From positions 1 through 64,000 of the IMG/VR virus record IMGVR_UViG_3300043444_000221: a stretch of 64,000 nt of DNA; one strand, written 5' to 3'. The translations under genes and the position numbers were made by a program. Source of the DNA: a virus. This document shows, piece by piece, positions 25,833-46,366 of the stretch (positions are counted from its first letter, which is position 1; the number at the start of each line of letters is the position of its first letter). Under the pieces are notes generated by a model, which made no database searches, was not told the DNA's origin, and saw only the letters and a program-made list of their open reading frames with translations.

Positions 25833-26014
25833 CACATTGACGACGGTTGATGTGGAGTATGACCGAATAATTCCCAAAGTCAAATGGGGGGAATAAGGTA
25901 CTATCGGATCTTAGCGGATCGTCTTAGCGGACAAACGGTAGGTGTGCTCAAAAGCGGTACTTGATGAACCGTATTGACTAGGCACTGGTGGTAAAAGGCA
26001 ATCCACCTACTCAC
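25833..26014 (+). ncRNA. Candidate structured ncRNA A (between tRNAs)
   Basis: Several nested helices, tandem TTAGCG-loop hairpins, possible pseudoknot; no ORF. Confidence 0.65.
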
Positions 26015-26018
26015 TCTT

Positions 26019-39779: not shown

Positions 39780-40067
39780 ATGGCAAGAGCTAAAGACGAA
39801 TGGATAGAAAAAGCTAGATGCAAAAACTTTGATACTAATCTATTTTTTGATACATATGAGGAAGACCTAGAGATCCGTGAGGATGTTGATACGCTTTGCT
39901 CAATGTGTCCAGTTGCACGTCATTGCTTTGCTGTTGGAGTATCGCAAAAAGGCTGGGGTGTCTGGGGAGGAATCTATCTGGAAGATGGAGAGATCTCTCG
40001 TGAGTTTAATAGACACAAGAATAAGGCCAAGTGGGCTGCAACCTGGAAGTATTTGACGGTAGATTAA
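39780..40067 (+). CDS. whiB: WhiB-family transcription factor
   Basis: Four Cys (C...CSMCPV...C) and GVWGG. Confidence 0.92.
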   Translation: MARAKDEWIEKARCKNFDTNLFFDTYEEDLEIREDVDTLCSMCPVARHCFAVGVSQKGWGVWGGIYLEDGEISREFNRHKNKAKWAATWKYLTVD

Positions 40068-41703: not shown

Positions 41704-41735
41704 GGCAGGCTGCAAATTGTGGCCTGCCTTTTCTT
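41704..41735 (+). terminator. Intrinsic terminator
   Basis: GGCAGGCTGC / GTGGCCTGCC followed by TTTTCTT. Confidence 0.8.
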
Positions 41736-41799
41736 ATGCTATAATTATTATGCCTGCCATTTGGGGGCAATTAACTCGCTTAATAAAGGAGATGATACT

Positions 41800-42186
41800 A
41801 TGGTTATTAACACACCATTCGCAGGACTTGGTCTAGATATTGACAAGTTCTTTGCACTAAATACAACTACCCCAGCATACCCACCATATAACGTTGTCAA
41901 GATTCATGACGATAAGGTTGTACTTGAGTTTGCGGTTGCTGGATTCAAGAAGGACGACATCAGTATTGTAACTGAAAAGAATGTCCTATCAATCAAGGGT
42001 GAGAAGCAGGTTGATGAGCGTACATACCTACACAAGGGTATTGCTGCTCGCAAGTTTGCAAGATCATTCACACTACCAGAATATTTTGAGGTAGAATCGG
42101 CAGGATATGAGGATGGCATTCTTTATATTGATTTGATCCGCAATATCCCAGAAGAAAAGAAACCAAAGCAGATTAGTATTAACTAA
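41800..42186 (+). CDS. Small heat shock protein Hsp20
   Basis: YPPYNV, AVAGF, HKGIA.R.F.RSF.L, DGIL; AGGAG RBS. Confidence 0.93.
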   Translation: MVINTPFAGLGLDIDKFFALNTTTPAYPPYNVVKIHDDKVVLEFAVAGFKKDDISIVTEKNVLSIKGEKQVDERTYLHKGIAARKFARSFTLPEYFEVESAGYEDGILYIDLIRNIPEEKKPKQISIN

Positions 42187-42190
42187 TCAA

Positions 42191-42218
42191 AAGCCCTGGG
42201 CATGGCTTAAAACTGCCC
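42191..42218 (+). other. H-type RNA pseudoknot motif, copy 1
   Basis: AAGCC-CT-GGGCA-T-GGCTT-AAAAC-TGCCC, 4 nt after the hsp20 stop. Confidence 0.7.
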
Positions 42219-42239
42219 ACACTATGCTATAATAATCCT

Positions 42240-42521
42240 ATGACTCAGCATGCACTAGTAACCCTTTCAAGCTCTACAGCTACCAGGCTAACCCCTAATG
42301 GAATACATTCAGGACTAGATATAACTCTTCAGAATGTAGACGATGTAGCATATGTTTATATTGGAGGAGAGGGAGTTACCAGATTAAATTATGGATATCG
42401 TATTGCCCCTGGTCATGCAATATCTTGGGAGCTTCCAGGAAATGATTCTCTTTATGCAATCACAGATACTAACCTATCCAAGCTAGCAATTTTAAAAACA
42501 AGTCTTGAGAGTGGAAGTTAA
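42240..42521 (+). CDS. Hypothetical beta-rich protein
   Basis: Leaderless start; QN....VYIGG..V....G. Confidence 0.7.
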   Translation: MTQHALVTLSSSTATRLTPNGIHSGLDITLQNVDDVAYVYIGGEGVTRLNYGYRIAPGHAISWELPGNDSLYAITDTNLSKLAILKTSLESGS

Positions 42522-43036
42522 TGTCAAGATTTACTAATCATACAGATGGAACACCAGGACCACAGGGCCCTGCTGGCGAACCTGGATACGGAGCACTTAC
42601 TAGATGGTCACCAAATTTTAAGGCAACTGGACTTTCTTTTACTGGAACAGGAAGCTCTTACCCAACATACAACTCTTATTATGCTAAAAATGGTCACATA
42701 GTTAGTTTTTGGATTGAAATTGATCTAGATACTGTTACTAATTTTGGAACTGGTCAGTACATAACAGAGTTGCCCTTTATGCCAATTGCTGGCTCAATGA
42801 ATCACTTTTCTGGCTGGGCACTCGTTGATCCAACACAAAACCCAGATCTCGCAGGGCATATTATTCTTAATGCAGACCACCTTGTAAATACAAAAGACCT
42901 TGATCTTCACTACATAAAGCAAGCAGGCGGATCAAAAACTGCTATTATGGAAGCAATGTTTACCCAAGATAATCCAGTAACTCTAACTACAGATACAACC
43001 ATTTATATCAATGGAACATATCTTACTAATGAATAG
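42521..43036 (+). CDS. Tail-fibre-like protein with a short collagen-like stretch
   Basis: GTPGPQGPAGEPG; LPF motif; C-terminal INGTY. Confidence 0.6.
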   Translation: MSRFTNHTDGTPGPQGPAGEPGYGALTRWSPNFKATGLSFTGTGSSYPTYNSYYAKNGHIVSFWIEIDLDTVTNFGTGQYITELPFMPIAGSMNHFSGWALVDPTQNPDLAGHIILNADHLVNTKDLDLHYIKQAGGSKTAIMEAMFTQDNPVTLTTDTTIYINGTYLTNE

Positions 43037-43050
43037 GATATAATATAGTT

Positions 43051-43500
43051 ATGAATGAAATAATTAATACACTCAAAAGGCTACTTGCAGACAACATTGC
43101 TCTCAAGTTCAAAGCACATGGATATCATTGGAATGTAGAGGGTGATGACTTCAAACAATTCCATGATTTTTTCGGGGATATTTATGAAAGCTATGATTCT
43201 GCAACAGATACATATGCAGAATGGCTAAGAATATTTAAAGAATACGCTCCATATAGATTGGCAGATTTCTTTGATGCCTCCTCTATTGGTGAGCCATCTA
43301 TTGTGGGTGACCCACAGCCCATGTTGGCTGACCTTTACTTATCTATTGAAAAGCACATTGCAGACTTAATTGTTGCAGGCAAAGCTGCTACTGCAGCAAA
43401 TGAGTTTGGATTAGCAAACTTCTTTGCAGATCGTCAAACTATTTCTCAAAAGTTCTGCTGGCAGATTCGTGCAAGTATCGAAGCTGAGGAGATGGACTAA
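43051..43500 (+). CDS. dps: Dps/ferritin-like protein
   Basis: HGYHWNVEG..F..FH.FF...Y, D..AE. Confidence 0.88.
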   Translation: MNEIINTLKRLLADNIALKFKAHGYHWNVEGDDFKQFHDFFGDIYESYDSATDTYAEWLRIFKEYAPYRLADFFDASSIGEPSIVGDPQPMLADLYLSIEKHIADLIVAGKAATAANEFGLANFFADRQTISQKFCWQIRASIEAEEMD

Positions 43501-44171
43501 TGCCATATCATGTTGGAGAAAAAGGATCTTACGGTTGTAACGGATACCCTGCACTAAAAGATGACGGAACAGTAATGGGATGTCATGACACCAAAGAACA
43601 GGCAGCAGCCCAAATTTATGCAATTAATCAGTCTGAAGGCAATATAGATAAGCAGTCCCCATGTTGGGATGGATATGTTCAGCGTGGTATGAAGCCAAAG
43701 AATGGAAAAATGGTTCCAAACTGTGTACCTGCTGCCAAGGCTGATGACCTGTGGGAAGATGACGATGATGTTATTTATGATAATGACTCTATGTCAAAGG
43801 CAGATGGCTACTCTCCACCAGCAGGGGCTAGAGCAGCAGCTCGTAAAGCAATTAAGTTTAAGGAAGATGGCAAAGCAGGTGGTGCAGGCACAGCAGTTGG
43901 CTGGACACGTGCACGTCAGCTGGCAAATGGTGAAAGCCTATCTCTAAGTACTGTAAAGCGTATGTACTCATACTTCTCACGCCATGAAGTAGACAAAAAG
44001 GGTAAGGACTGGGCTAACCAGGCTAATCCATCTAATGGCTACATTATGTGGCTTGCCTGGGGTGGAGATGCAGGATACTCTTGGTCTCGCAGAATTGTAG
44101 AGAGCGAAAAGAATAAATCTTTGTTTGCTGACTTTGGTAAAGATTATACAAAGTCAACAAGAGTGCTATAA
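43500..44171 (+). CDS. Modular phage hypothetical protein
   Basis: GCH...A..QI.AI module, PCWDGY...VPNCVP module, RA.QLA...RMYSYFSRH...WGG module. Confidence 0.75.
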   Translation: MPYHVGEKGSYGCNGYPALKDDGTVMGCHDTKEQAAAQIYAINQSEGNIDKQSPCWDGYVQRGMKPKNGKMVPNCVPAAKADDLWEDDDDVIYDNDSMSKADGYSPPAGARAAARKAIKFKEDGKAGGAGTAVGWTRARQLANGESLSLSTVKRMYSYFSRHEVDKKGKDWANQANPSNGYIMWLAWGGDAGYSWSRRIVESEKNKSLFADFGKDYTKSTRVL

Positions 44172-44178
44172 TAATATT

Positions 44179-44265
44179 GTCCCTCATACAGGCATCGCTC
44201 TTAGGATGGATTAGTTACCTATTTTATGACCGTGGCCTATTGCAGGTTGATCCTGTATGGGGGAT
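44179..44265 (+). ncRNA. Candidate small RNA C (~87 nt)
   Basis: TGCTATAAT-N6 start; 14-bp closing stem between 5' and 3' ends; two internal hairpins. Confidence 0.65.
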
Positions 44266-45035
44266 TACTTAATTCCCAAATCACGCTGTCTTTTATCAAA
44301 TGCCTCCAATGCCTTGGCATAGTCATCTTCAAGCTTTGATGTAAGGTGAAACTTCTTGACCATCTCTTTGATTATGTAGTATTCCTCTGGCTTTTCTACT
44401 GGAAATGCATTTGCTGCACCACTGGAAAAGTTGATATCACTCTTAGCACGTTCAATGTGGTGTGCCAAATGCTGATCAATTTGTTCCTGTGTCTTCAAAA
44501 TACACTCTCCAGTGCCACCAGAAAGCCTGTAGAGGTGTGGAAGAACATTTGGCAGGTCTTCTGTTACCTGCTCAAATGTAAATGGCACTATGCGGTCTAT
44601 AGCAATCATTGAGCCATAGGTATAGCCCTCCCACATCCTAGATTCCTGATACATGGACTCACGGATATACTCTTCCTTTCTTTCACGGAAGAATGCCATA
44701 TTGCCATCAACAATCTCTGGTCTTCCAGCAATCGTTGAGCTTCCAAATCCATACGATGTCTTAAGTATTTGAGATGTAATGGCATCAACTGGGTCTCTAA
44801 GTACAGTAGTCATTGTTACACCAGGCAATTCTGCACGGAATAGAAGTGGTTCATGACATAGAATAACCCAGTTATCCATCTGACTCCATTCACCTGCCAC
44901 ACGTGGATCTAAATGGTCACGTAGGTTATGACCGTACATGTCTCTAATTAGATCAAAAAAGAAAAAGCCACCAGTTCTTGGCATGGTGTTAAGAATAATT
45001 TTATACACGAGGTTCCCTTCTAGTGTGTGGATCAT
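44265..45035 (-). CDS. Sulfotransferase-like P-loop protein
   Basis: MPRTGG, H, LRDPVDAITS, FE. Confidence 0.6.
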   Translation of the reverse strand: MIHTLEGNLVYKIILNTMPRTGGFFFFDLIRDMYGHNLRDHLDPRVAGEWSQMDNWVILCHEPLLFRAELPGVTMTTVLRDPVDAITSQILKTSYGFGSSTIAGRPEIVDGNMAFFRERKEEYIRESMYQESRMWEGYTYGSMIAIDRIVPFTFEQVTEDLPNVLPHLYRLSGGTGECILKTQEQIDQHLAHHIERAKSDINFSSGAANAFPVEKPEEYYIIKEMVKKFHLTSKLEDDYAKALEAFDKRQRDLGIK

Positions 45036-46095
45036 TAATGATGCTATCTGTATCTGTTATGCCAGTTAGTTGAGTTATAGTTTTACTAAAAATCTCATCA
45101 GTTATAATTATAGCATTATCCATATCTATCTGTGGGTCTCTGGTAATTTCCAGTGTAAATGGGTTATATCCGATAAAGTCTATAAAATCCTCTACAGATC
45201 TTTCCCTGAAGGCACCAAAATCTTTATTATGCCTTATTTCTGGGTCAGTAAATATCTTTTTAAACTTATCATATGACTCTAAATTTGCTGCCCTAATTCT
45301 AGCCTGTTGCTCTGGCCTATCCCACCTAATATGTCTAACAAACTTATCACTTCTTTCACTTGGATTCCAGTAGTTAAAGTTATTGGTATATAGGTGTATT
45401 GGGGACACTACTTCATATCCTGCAGTCCAAGCACGAAGCATAGAAAGCTGTTGCTCAAAGCACTGTGCCATATTTTTCGCAAATGGGACTTCCCTGATAT
45501 AGTCTGAATATGAAAATACCATATTTCCGTTATAAAAGTTTTCTTTGATCATTAGGTTGTTTGGTTTTGCAACCACCAAGCCATTAAGAGCGATTGGCTC
45601 TGGGAAGTCTAGAGTCTTTCCAATTACCTCCCACTCACCCATGTCTGGGTATGAAGTTAGTGGGTCAGCAATCAGCTCATCCTTCCAGCTATCAAAATAA
45701 ATAGTTTGAGAATTTATTATGCTCTTGCCAAAAACTATGTTGGCTATCAAAAGCTCTGCCTCAAGCATTACGTCCCAATTTTTTCTAAACTTTGTGTGAC
45801 AGTCTACTTGCATATAGTAAGCTTCGTCAGTCATAAACTCATCAATGATCATCTGCTTAATGTCGCATAAATAGTCTGGTGCATCATCTCCATGCACCTT
45901 CTTAATGTTGATATTAGCATCTGGAAGTTTATCTTGAATAGAGTCAACCATCCAGTCATCTTCTGGGTAGCCTTGGAACAACACACCAAATACAAGTCTA
46001 TCTTTATTATAGGCTTGATCATATGCTGACTTTATTGTTTCATAAACAAATGGATCTCTCCAGCTTGGCATTGATACAAAAATCTTATTAGTCAT
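45001..46095 (-). CDS. GT60-like glycosyltransferase
   Basis: IFVSMPSWRDP, YYMQVDCHTKF..NWD, RAWTAGY. Confidence 0.82.
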   Translation of the reverse strand: MTNKIFVSMPSWRDPFVYETIKSAYDQAYNKDRLVFGVLFQGYPEDDWMVDSIQDKLPDANINIKKVHGDDAPDYLCDIKQMIIDEFMTDEAYYMQVDCHTKFRKNWDVMLEAELLIANIVFGKSIINSQTIYFDSWKDELIADPLTSYPDMGEWEVIGKTLDFPEPIALNGLVVAKPNNLMIKENFYNGNMVFSYSDYIREVPFAKNMAQCFEQQLSMLRAWTAGYEVVSPIHLYTNNFNYWNPSERSDKFVRHIRWDRPEQQARIRAANLESYDKFKKIFTDPEIRHNKDFGAFRERSVEDFIDFIGYNPFTLEITRDPQIDMDNAIIITDEIFSKTITQLTGITDTDSIINDPHTRREPRV

Positions 46096-46330
46096 TATTG
46101 TTTCTTTCATATTCACGTTGCTTGTGGCAATTTGCACAGACAACATCACACTTCTTTACCTCTTTCCAGGCTGCATCTTTTCCATATTTTCGAAGAACAC
46201 GATAAACTAAGTCTATCTTCTTTGCTCCTGGACGATGGTCAAACTCAAGTATGTAGTGAGGGTAGTGGACCTTGCAATCCTTGCACCCCATCTTCTCTTT
46301 ATACGCCTGAAATTGAGAGTATTGATTCAT
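46088..46330 (-). CDS. Small HNH endonuclease
   Basis: CKDC, EFDH, KC.VVCANCH. Confidence 0.85.
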   Translation of the reverse strand: MNQYSQFQAYKEKMGCKDCKVHYPHYILEFDHRPGAKKIDLVYRVLRKYGKDAAWKEVKKCDVVCANCHKQREYERNNND

Positions 46331-46366
46331 TACATATATTATAGCAAATAGAGGTATAATATTATT

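What the first reader, a model, noticed from the sequence alone, without database searches (positions are those of the whole stretch)
44164..44265. Stand-alone ~87-nt small RNA with its own promoter
TGCTATAAT is followed 6 nt later by GTCCCTCATACAGG, the same spacing that places ATG in this phage's leaderless genes. That 5' end pairs over 14 bp with CCTGTATGGGGGAT at the 3' end. The interior has two small hairpins (CATC/GATG, GGCCT/AGGTT) flanking an AU-rich strand. It lies between convergent genes and has no ORF.
Basis: partly seen in the sequence, partly recalled or inferred. Interest (0 to 1): 0.7.

Follow-up and report, generated by a model that had tools for sequence, protein, structure and literature searches.

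The report
Conserved small RNA gene in freshwater actinophages
This 87-base stretch is a member of a previously undescribed, widespread family of promoter-driven, three-armed structured small RNAs in phages of freshwater Actinobacteria; what it does is unknown, but it nearly always occurs with a tiny HNH nuclease gene.

Summary
An extended -10 box at 44164-44172 lies 6 nt before G44179. A 14-bp stem joins 44179-44192 to 44252-44265.

Comparison settles that it is an RNA gene. Homologues occur in more than 100 IMG/VR viral contigs, one per contig. Each has its own TATAAT/TACAAT box at the same spacing. The closing stem shows compensatory changes in 11 of 12 pairs, with many G-U pairs, so selection acts on the + strand RNA. 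The interior hairpin GAUGG-NNUAGUUAC-C is nearly invariant. The fold is a three-way junction (P1, P2, P3).

There is no match in Rfam, GenBank phages or the bacterial genomes searched. It is not a tRNA, no Ro gene accompanies it, and it does not code for protein. A plain terminator would not keep an invariant interior.

Its position shuffles at promoter repeats within an hsp20/dps/223-aa gene island. Its presence tracks an 80-90-aa HNH gene (26/1/1/52 in 80 loci).

Function is inferred only: most likely a stable, protein-binding trans-acting RNA. Transcript ends remain unmapped.

The same scan flagged this element on two other genomes.

The parts
44145..44150 (+). -35-like hexamer TATACA, 16 nt before the -10 box
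   Evidence: Consensus scan, 10 of 12 matches with TG. Not conserved across the family and not tested.
44164..44172 (+). Extended -10 promoter TGCTATAAT of the RNA; it contains the TAA stop of the upstream 223-aa gene
   Evidence: A -10 box at the same spacing is conserved in 58 of 65 unique family flanks.
44179..44265 (+). The small RNA (87 nt), with predicted start at G44179
   Evidence: Covariance-model match at 44181-44263: 76.5 bits on + against 18 bits on -, and 72.1 bits with model R2. It is the only copy in the window.
44179..44192 (+). P1, 5' strand
   Evidence: 14 pairs in this copy. In the family 11 of 12 pairs show changes on both sides, with 97-99.8% of cells paired.
44202..44209 (+). 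P2, 5' strand (UAGGAUGG)
   Evidence: Pairs with 44219-44226. The pair flanking the invariant GAUGG covaries (GU 20, UG 15, GC 8, AU 2, UA 2). L351 has lost one whole pair on both sides.
44210..44218 (+). L2, 9-nt loop AUUAGUUAC; the last seven bases are invariant in all members seen
   Evidence: Only the first two or three loop bases vary (AUU, CUU, CAU, ACU).
44219..44226 (+). P2, 3' strand (CUAUUUUA)
44233..44249 (+). P3 hairpin (UGGCCU / AUUGC / AGGUUG in this copy)
   Evidence: A small hairpin is found at this place in 54 of 55 members with different sequences, for example UGGGC/GCCUG, CGAGC/GCUUG, UGGC-GCAA-GUCA and UGC/GCA. The register differs between subclasses, so a single alignment counts it poorly.
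44252..44265 (+). P1, 3' strand; its last base overlaps the stop codon of the convergent 256-aa gene
46088..46330 (-). Mini-HNH endonuclease gene (80 aa). It is the window's copy of the gene that co-occurs with the RNA elsewhere. It is leaderless behind TGCTATAAT at 46338-46346 (-).
   Evidence: tblastn gives 40% identity to the HNH that starts 28-34 nt after the RNA in most contigs. Co-occurrence was counted. PHROG HNH families were matched.
41737..41745 (+). Second copy of TGCTATAAT (promoter of hsp20). Together with 44164-44172 it brackets a 2.4-kb gene block that related phages lack.
   Evidence: L083 and L340 align to window 46613->44164 and then directly to 41748->41380.

Best explanation
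Window 44179-44265 (+) is a gene for a conserved structured small RNA of WhiB-encoding freshwater actinophages. Its own extended -10 promoter at 44164-44172 is predicted to transcribe it.

Shown by comparison:
- The RNA folds into a three-way junction.
- A 12-14-bp closing helix (P1) ties the 5' and 3' ends together.
- A hairpin (P2) has an almost invariant stem and 9-nt loop, GAUGG-NNUAGUUAC-C.
- A small variable hairpin (P3) follows.
- The joining strands are conserved (CUURG before P2, GAAU-like before the P1 3' strand).

Inferred:
- Transcription starts at G44179. It ends at or just after P1, which is followed by a moderately U-rich tail.
- The product acts in trans as a stable, folded RNA that a protein partner recognises through the P2/L2 hairpin, as a decoy, cofactor or scaffold. 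This is judged more likely than action as an antisense regulator.
- The reason is that the paired bases of P2 stay fixed while P1 pairs change freely. That is the signature of sequence-specific recognition of a folded hairpin.
- The best candidate for a linked partner is the 80-90-aa HNH nuclease that co-occurs with the RNA. This link is only genetic.
- In the window's arrangement P1 probably also helps end transcription of the two convergent units, as a side effect.
For: 1. Family. blastn-short and a 15-mer scan found homologues in viral contigs. Of the first 100 loci from the scan, 84 hold exactly one member at 42-91 bits. Of 86 loci found through flanking proteins, 34 hold one.

2. RNA-level selection.
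- P1: 11 of 12 pairs have changes on both sides and 97-99.8% of cells are paired.
- For the whole P1+P2+P3 model, 0 of 500 shuffles reached any measure, and pairing collapses to 32-55% when partners are slid.
- About 36 G-U cells in P1 would be A-C mismatches on the other strand.
- Model scores are 62-92 bits on + against 16-24 on -.

3. P2. One flanking pair shows GU/UG/GC/AU/UA. A divergent member lost one full pair on both sides.

4. P3. Hairpins of different sequence occupy the same place.

5. Promoter. It is kept at fixed spacing in 58 of 65 unique flanks, and it is the best promoter-like site locally.

6. Context independence. The RNA lies after hsp20, before HNH, before the 223-aa homologue, before dps, or convergent as in the window. 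In L083 a different upstream region is fused to it exactly at the -10 box.

7. Not coding. Member lengths of 73-87 nt differ by non-multiples of three, and no frame is open in more than 10 of 55 members.

8. RNA libraries (weak). The commonest variant is held by 11 runs on record as RNA, from freshwater and lake studies. Contigs of two metatranscriptomes span hsp20, the RNA and HNH at 100% identity. A third contig carries 23 differences in the hsp20 part and none in the RNA.

9. HNH link. In 80 loci centred on the 223-aa homologue the counts are RNA+HNH+ 26, RNA+HNH- 1, RNA-HNH+ 1 and neither 52. The HNH gene is kept within 1.3-4.6 kb in rearranged layouts, including the window, where it is only 40% identical.
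Against: - No transcript end, strand or abundance has been measured. The RNA-library data are assembled contigs that also cover the flanking genes and could include DNA.
- No partner has been identified.
- The near-invariance of GAUGG..UAGUUACC is partly built in, because most members were found with that exact 15-mer. The members found without it still keep UAGUUAC.
- The RNA and HNH genes are usually adjacent, so joint gain and loss may be simple linkage in a mobile cassette. Only 2 well-supported independent contrasts exist on the 223-aa gene tree.
- L347 and L348 keep the HNH operon without the RNA.
- The tail after P1 is only moderately U-rich (about 6 T in 12). The terminator scan calls nothing here, so the 3' end is uncertain.
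Confidence: 0.6

Rival explanations
1. Base-pairing regulatory sRNA. The invariant 9-nt loop L2 (AUUAGUUAC) is a seed that kisses or pairs with a conserved host or phage RNA. P1 serves only as a stabilising clamp.
For: The loop is single-stranded and invariant. Loop-presented seeds are common in bacteria that lack Hfq (established knowledge). The RNA lies in a hub of translation-related small RNA genes, with tRNAs and one tmRNA nearby.
Against: The window holds no excess of sites complementary to the loop region: 4 matches with up to 2 mismatches against 3.85 expected, one of them the element itself. The paired bases of P2 and the junction strands are as conserved as the loop, which a seed model does not require. 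No host target could be searched properly because the host genome is unknown.
Confidence: 0.15
2. RNA partner of the mini-HNH nuclease. The RNA binds the 80-90-aa HNH protein as an inhibitor (antitoxin-like) or as a targeting or activating cofactor. The two together form a two-gene module.
For: Co-occurrence is 26/1/1/52. The HNH start lies 28-34 nt after the RNA in about 52 of 64 unbiased loci. The pair stays together in other layouts and at 40% HNH identity. The layout promoter, structured RNA, leaky stem, then nuclease gene resembles type III toxin-antitoxin loci.
Against: Adjacency alone predicts joint inheritance. The formal independent-contrast test is underpowered. L347, L348 and L065 carry the HNH without the RNA. 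In most loci the HNH gene has its own promoter. No RNA-dependent minimal HNH is known. No binding test was possible with these tools.
Confidence: 0.2
3. Only a transcription terminator or insulator. This would be bidirectional in the window, with the promoter-like box being incidental AT-rich sequence.
For: It fills the gap between convergent genes in the window and in about 10 related contigs. P1 is GC-rich at its base and followed by a moderately U-rich tail.
Against: In most contigs it lies between co-directional genes and is followed by another promoter. The 59-nt interior is conserved, with an invariant hairpin, which a terminator does not need. The phage uses ordinary compact terminators elsewhere, for example at 41704-41728. 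The scan calls no terminator here. The -10 box keeps a fixed spacing in 58 of 65 flanks. The G-U pairs favour only one strand.
Confidence: 0.05
4. DNA-level element. It would be a cassette boundary or recombination site (like the promoter-stem-loop cassettes of T4-type phages), or the recognition region of the neighbouring homing HNH.
For: A 2.4-kb block is gained or lost exactly at repeated TGCTATAAT boxes. The island is a series of promoter-headed cassettes. A free-standing HNH gene lies next to it.
Against: The recombination joint is the promoter box, not the stem or its interior. Compensatory changes with G-U pairs and strand asymmetry indicate selection on a folded + strand RNA. If the RNA gene were the HNH target, HNH-less genomes should carry it, yet 52 of 53 loci without the RNA also lack the HNH.
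Confidence: 0.05

Closest known systems
Y RNAs / bacterial YrlA (partners of Ro60/Rsr)
   Same: A ~80-110-nt RNA whose 5' and 3' ends form a long closing helix around a structured, conserved interior. It is a trans-acting RNP-type RNA and also occurs in phages.
   Different: No match to the Rfam Y RNA or YrlA models, even at E<=10. No TROVE/Ro gene in the 80-kb record. No tRNA-like module was called.
phi29-family packaging RNA (pRNA)
   Same: A phage-encoded, promoter-driven RNA with a three-way-junction core, a helix formed by paired 5'/3' ends, and two hairpin loops.
   Different: No Rfam pRNA match. It is half the size. It lies in an accessory and replication region, not beside packaging genes. 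No conserved complementarity between L2 and L3 was seen.
Promoter-early stem-loop (PeSL) cassettes of T4-type phages (from my own knowledge of Arbiol et al. 2010; not re-read here)
   Same: Accessory genes are organised as cassettes, each headed by a sigma-70-type promoter. Gene blocks are gained or lost by recombination at the repeated promoter, as shown here for 41737/44164.
   Different: PeSL stem-loops are simple hairpins with no conserved interior. Here the stem encloses a 45-65-nt conserved, covarying three-way junction that is kept as a unit in all contexts.
Type I 3'UTR-derived sRNAs (e.g. MicL, DapZ)
   Same: The sRNA promoter is embedded in the end of the upstream ORF; here the -10 box overlaps the stop codon of hsp20 or of the 223-aa gene. 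The sRNA would share its 3' end with the upstream mRNA.
   Different: Those are Hfq-dependent, with a linear 5' seed and a plain terminator. This RNA has both ends paired and a complex fold. Actinobacteria lack Hfq (established knowledge).
Type III toxin-antitoxin loci (ToxIN and similar)
   Same: The layout in most contigs runs promoter, structured non-coding RNA, stem with a U-rich tail, then a small nuclease gene about 30 nt downstream.
   Different: Type III antitoxins are tandem repeats processed by an endoribonuclease toxin. Here there is a single unit and no repeats. The protein is an HNH, usually a DNase fold, with its own promoter. The two genes are not adjacent in the window.
Stable small RNAs of unknown function in phage tRNA regions (T4 species 1 and 2 / RNAs C and D; from my own knowledge)
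   Same: A phage-encoded stable small RNA located among tRNA and tmRNA genes in several contigs, with function unknown.
   Different: No sequence or model similarity could be tested, and no tRNA-like precursor context is seen.

Membership tests
Y RNA / YrlA | Match to the family covariance models (Rfam Y_RNA, YrlA) | tested here: not met
   No hit at gathering score in the window or in 8 diverse members. No hit at E<=10 in 44050-44400.
Y RNA / YrlA | Ro60/Rsr (TROVE domain) protein encoded in the same genome | tested here: not met
   PF05731 search of the 80-kb virus record gave no match, and controls rang in 2 known genomes. The record is about 73% complete.
Y RNA / YrlA | Closing helix formed by the 5' and 3' ends | tested here: met
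   P1 of 12-14 bp, covarying.
tRNA / tmRNA / tRNA-like | Cloverleaf or tRNA-like domain detectable by ARAGORN or the Rfam tRNA/tmRNA models | tested here: not met
   ARAGORN finds 6 tRNAs elsewhere in the window and none here. The Rfam tRNA and tmRNA models hit neighbouring genes but never the element.
phi29-type pRNA | Match to the Rfam pRNA model | tested here: not met
   No Rfam hit.
phi29-type pRNA | Position beside packaging genes | tested here: not met
   The neighbours are hsp20, dps, a glycosyltransferase and HNH.
Intrinsic (bidirectional) terminator | Compact GC-rich hairpin (loop 3-8 nt) followed directly by a U run | tested here: not met
   The terminator scan reports nothing at 44179-44275 on either strand. 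The 'loop' is 59 nt of conserved structure. The tail in the window is UACUUAAUUCCC.
Promoter-stem-loop (PeSL-like) shuffling cassette | Repeated promoter at cassette borders where gene blocks are exchanged | tested here: met
   TGCTATAAT at 41737 and 44164 brackets a 2.4-kb block that is absent in L083 and L340, exactly at the repeat.
Promoter-stem-loop (PeSL-like) shuffling cassette | The stem-loop is a simple hairpin with no conserved interior of its own | tested here: not met
   The interior has an invariant hairpin and further helices.
Type III toxin-antitoxin RNA antitoxin | Tandem array of short direct repeats upstream of the toxin gene | tested here: not met
   There is a single unit and one model hit per locus. 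No direct repeats are seen in the element (and the sequence).
23S rRNA GTPase-associated centre mimic (L11-binding three-way junction) | Sequence and structure similarity to H42-H44 of host 23S rRNA | tested here: not met
   The actinobacterial region was fetched. Only short words (GGAUG, UUAG, AUU) are shared. There was no local hit to the Rfam LSU models at E<=10.
Small protein-coding gene | One reading frame kept open across homologues, with length changes in multiples of three | tested here: not met
   The best frame is open in 10 of 55 members. Lengths are 73, 77, 78, 80-85 and 87 nt.

The most novel reading that the evidence does not exclude
The RNA and the 80-90-aa HNH protein form a two-component phage system of a kind not yet described. 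A folded three-way-junction RNA would bind a minimal HNH nuclease through the invariant P2/L2 hairpin. It would either hold the nuclease inactive (an RNA antitoxin for a DNase) or direct or activate it during infection. The pair would move between phage genomes as a promoter-headed cassette.
Probability: 0.2. Interest if true: 0.8.

Novelty: new variant of a known kind. Interest (0 to 1): 0.6.

Why it matters
Phage-encoded structured small RNAs with known roles are few: tRNAs, tmRNA, Y-like RNAs, pRNA and RNA anti-CRISPRs. This is a well-defined new family with several useful properties.

- It has a clear promoter and a covariation-supported fold.
- It has an almost invariant recognition hairpin.
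- It has a wide distribution in phages of the abundant low-GC freshwater Actinobacteria, a virus-host system with almost no functional genetics.

Its invariance across phages whose proteins have diverged to 40-85% identity suggests a conserved partner. That could be a host core component or a phage protein. Its tight genetic link with a minimal HNH nuclease gives a directly testable hypothesis.

It also gives a clean example of gene-cassette exchange at repeated promoters in actinophages. The covariance model built here could be used to annotate the family in viral metagenomes.

Tried and rejected
- **Rfam.** The whole window at gathering score, 351 nt around the element at E<=10, and 8 diverse members all gave nothing for the element.
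- **GenBank phage isolates.** blastn with word 11 on the window copy and on the commonest variant gave no match.
- **Bacterial genomes.** A 15-mer scan gave only chance hits: the first 100 loci scored 26 bits or less with the model and none had the stem. Two actinobacterial MAGs and 151 genomes of their order gave no match.
- **RNA-seq.** Only assembled contigs were on offer, with no raw reads. No starts, ends, strand or level could be read. Run X6 had no cover over the RNA, and nothing can be concluded from that.
- **Y RNA idea.** There is no TROVE gene.
- **Two-codon mini-ORF.** An AUG-NNN-UAG is kept in the core across loop variants. It was dropped because the AUG sits in the P2 stem and has no spaced Shine-Dalgarno sequence. 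L351 shifts it.
- **23S GTPase-centre (L11 site) mimic.** The architecture is similar but there is no significant sequence or model similarity.
- **L2-J3/1 pseudoknot and L2-L3 kissing.** Complementarity is not kept across subclasses.
- **Complement of L2 in the window.** There is no excess.
- **Equivalent RNAs elsewhere.** A search for promoter plus long-stem RNAs in the 53 related loci that lack the element found none.
- **The 223-aa neighbour.** It belongs to a phage-only domain often fused to portal or protease proteins, which gives no RNA-related clue.
- **Catalogue of viral structured RNAs (PMC10690425).** The text does not mention this context and no supplement is held, so prior listing there cannot be excluded.
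- **Tree-based test of RNA/HNH co-evolution.** It was underpowered, with only 2 supported contrasts.

Full report
**What is in the window**

TGCTATAAT lies at 44164-44172. Six bases later, G44179 opens a 14-pair helix with 44252-44265, which includes two G-U wobbles. The 9-mer is over-represented in the window, with 8 copies against 1.3 expected. In several places it sits 6-7 nt before an ATG, so this phage uses it as a promoter for leaderless genes. The local consensus scan ranks this site first.

The + strand folds better than shuffles (-32.9 kcal/mol, z = -3.3) and better than the - strand (-25.3). The element fills the gap between convergent ORFs 43500-44171 (+) and 44265-45035 (-). A mechanical 31-codon TTG ORF spans it but is not conserved.

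**The phage**

The window is part of an 80-kb IMG/VR virus record with 40% G+C. It encodes:
- a PolIII-alpha-type polymerase, DnaB, a RecA/UvsX-like protein, ribonucleotide reductase and sugar-modifying enzymes;
- tRNAs and a manA RNA;
- a WhiB protein.

This is the signature of actinophages.

The genes around the element, in order, are:
- hsp20, 41750-42186;
- two ORFs of unknown function;
- a Dps/ferritin-like gene;
- a 223-aa gene of PHROG 2859;
- the RNA;
- then, converging on it, a 256-aa gene, a glycosyltransferase and an 80-aa HNH gene.

**It is a family**

Searching 86 related viral loci with the element found about 30 homologues. Their core was identical and their stems had changed in a compensating way.

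Of the first 100, 84 contain one full or end-truncated member by covariance model. Members found without the exact 15-mer show that only the first two or three loop bases vary.

A divergent member beside a 66%-identical HNH has lost exactly one base pair of P2 on both sides.

Nothing similar was found in:
- Rfam;
- GenBank phage isolates;
- the bacterial genomes searched.

**Structure**

On 50-55 distinct sequences, P1 is paired in 97-99.8% of cells. Changes on both sides occur in 11 of 12 pairs. For the full P1+P2+P3 model no shuffle reached the observed values, and sliding the partners destroys the pairing. About 36 G-U cells in P1, together with a 45-70-bit advantage for the + strand, show that the selected molecule is the + strand RNA.

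P2 is GAUGG paired with CYAUU around the loop NNUAGUUAC. Its sequence is almost fixed, but the next pair out covaries (GU, UG, GC, AU, UA).

P3 is a 3-7-bp hairpin whose sequence and loop size differ between subclasses. For that reason a single alignment scores it poorly.

The joining strands keep CUURG and a GAAU-like motif. In the window the parts are:
- P1: 44179-92 with 44252-65;
- P2: 44202-09 with 44219-26;
- L2: 44210-18;
- P3: 44233-49.

**Promoter and ends**

Of 65 unique upstream flanks, 58 carry TATAAT, TACAAT or TAAAAT, with a modal 6 nt to the first paired base. TG precedes the box in 25. One subclass starts about 37 nt further upstream and adds a 5' hairpin.

After P1 the sequence is moderately U-rich, and in some members it is a good U run. 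In most contigs a new -10 box follows within 15-25 nt and drives a leaderless gene.

No ends were measured. Eleven runs on record as RNA, from freshwater and lake studies, hold the commonest variant. Only contigs could be laid on the sequence:
- Two runs span hsp20, the RNA and HNH without a difference.
- A third run has 23 differences in hsp20 and none in the RNA.

This fits conservation and presence in RNA libraries but does not prove a discrete transcript.

**Context and mobility**

In 64 loci found by the core alone:
- hsp20 lies upstream in about 53;
- an 88-aa HNH gene starts 28-34 nt downstream in about 52;
- the 223-aa homologue follows in about 42.

Other layouts put the RNA directly before the 223-aa homologue, before dps, or convergent as in the window.

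Relatives L083 and L340 lack window 41749-44163 exactly between the two TGCTATAAT copies. In them the hsp20 terminator and promoter drive the RNA. The island is thus a chain of promoter-headed cassettes that recombine at the promoter. tRNA genes and one tmRNA lie nearby in several contigs.

**Link to the HNH gene**

In 80 loci centred on the 223-aa homologue, the RNA and the HNH are both present in 26 and both absent in 52, with one exception each way. By contrast, hsp20 is present in 30 of the 53 loci that lack the RNA.

The window keeps a 40%-identical HNH 1.8 kb away on the other strand. Ten of 14 relatives of that HNH have the RNA. Two loci were too short to tell, and two (L347, L348) lack it.

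On a quick tree of the 223-aa homologues the RNA changes state 12 times and the HNH 11 times. Only two contrasts rest on supported branches. The association is therefore strong, but it may reflect joint inheritance of neighbouring genes.

**What it most likely does**

Shown: a conserved, covarying, promoter-equipped three-way-junction RNA gene.

Inferred: it acts in trans as a stable folded RNA. Its ends are protected by P1, and its fixed P2/L2 hairpin is read by a protein. I prefer this to an antisense role for two reasons:
- Paired bases and junctions are as fixed as the loop.
- The phage holds no excess of complementary sites.

I reject a pure terminator role because of the conserved interior, the co-directional contexts, the strand asymmetry, and the compact terminators this phage uses elsewhere. 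A helper role in termination in the convergent layout is still likely.

The HNH partner idea is the most interesting reading that remains open, at about 0.2.

**Known families**

It resembles Y RNAs and pRNA in general design and PeSL cassettes in genome behaviour, but it fails the defining tests of each (see Membership tests). A resemblance to the L11-binding three-way junction of 23S rRNA was checked against actinobacterial sequences and dropped.

A 2023 catalogue of more than 10,000 candidate viral structured RNAs may include it without comment. This could not be checked.

**Earlier notes of this scan**

First readers had flagged the same kind of element on this stretch and on two other genomes. 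One lay between convergent modification genes and one between hsp20 and dps. Those contexts match the layouts found here. None had been followed up.

**Verdict**

This is a real feature and a new RNA family of unknown function. Interest is moderate to high because the family is widespread, cleanly defined and experimentally approachable, and because of the HNH link.

Noticed in passing
window 41737-41745 and 44164-44172; L083 3842-3853; L340 6176-6187: A 2.4-kb block (hsp20, two unknown ORFs, dps, 223-aa gene) is bracketed by direct repeats of the promoter TGCTATAAT. Two related contigs lack it exactly at that repeat. This points to gene-cassette gain or loss by recombination at promoters.
   Followed up: yes
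window 46088-46330 (-), promoter 46338-46346 (-): An 80-aa minimal HNH endonuclease gene, apparently leaderless, heads an operon with a glycosyltransferase and a 256-aa gene that converges on the RNA. It is homologous (40% identity) to the HNH that directly follows the RNA in most other contigs.
   Followed up: partly
L054 2340-2470; L042 2828-2920; 29 fetched loci in all: In relatives without the RNA, and upstream of it in many D-type loci, another conserved ~110-nt stretch follows hsp20 behind its own TAGTATAAT box. It has no Rfam match. It contains a ~44-codon ATG ORF, so it may be a small protein gene rather than an RNA.
   Followed up: partly
L094 8142-8387 (-): A phage-encoded tmRNA (Rfam, 112 bits) lies 1.4 kb from the small RNA. 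tRNA genes lie close to the RNA in L029, L009, L010, L152 and L351, and directly after the 223-aa gene in L003 and L011.
   Followed up: no
L013, L016, L029, L047, L079, L188 (about 37 nt upstream of P1): A subclass of the RNA has its -10 box about 37 nt further upstream. It carries an extra 5' segment beginning GUCGGGGGAGACAGCGAC, a possible extra hairpin.
   Followed up: no
window 44125-44160: A 12-nt inverted repeat (TTGCTGACTTTG / CAAAGTCAACAA, 12-nt gap) lies inside the 3' end of the 223-aa gene, just upstream of the RNA promoter. Its meaning is unknown.
   Followed up: no
window 39801-39977 (+): A WhiB-family gene (Pfam PF02467, 45.6 bits) marks the phage as an actinophage.
   Followed up: partly
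window 25835-26017 (+): A manA RNA motif (Rfam RF01745, 64.8 bits) lies between tRNA-Asn and tRNA-Asp in the first tRNA cluster.
   Followed up: no
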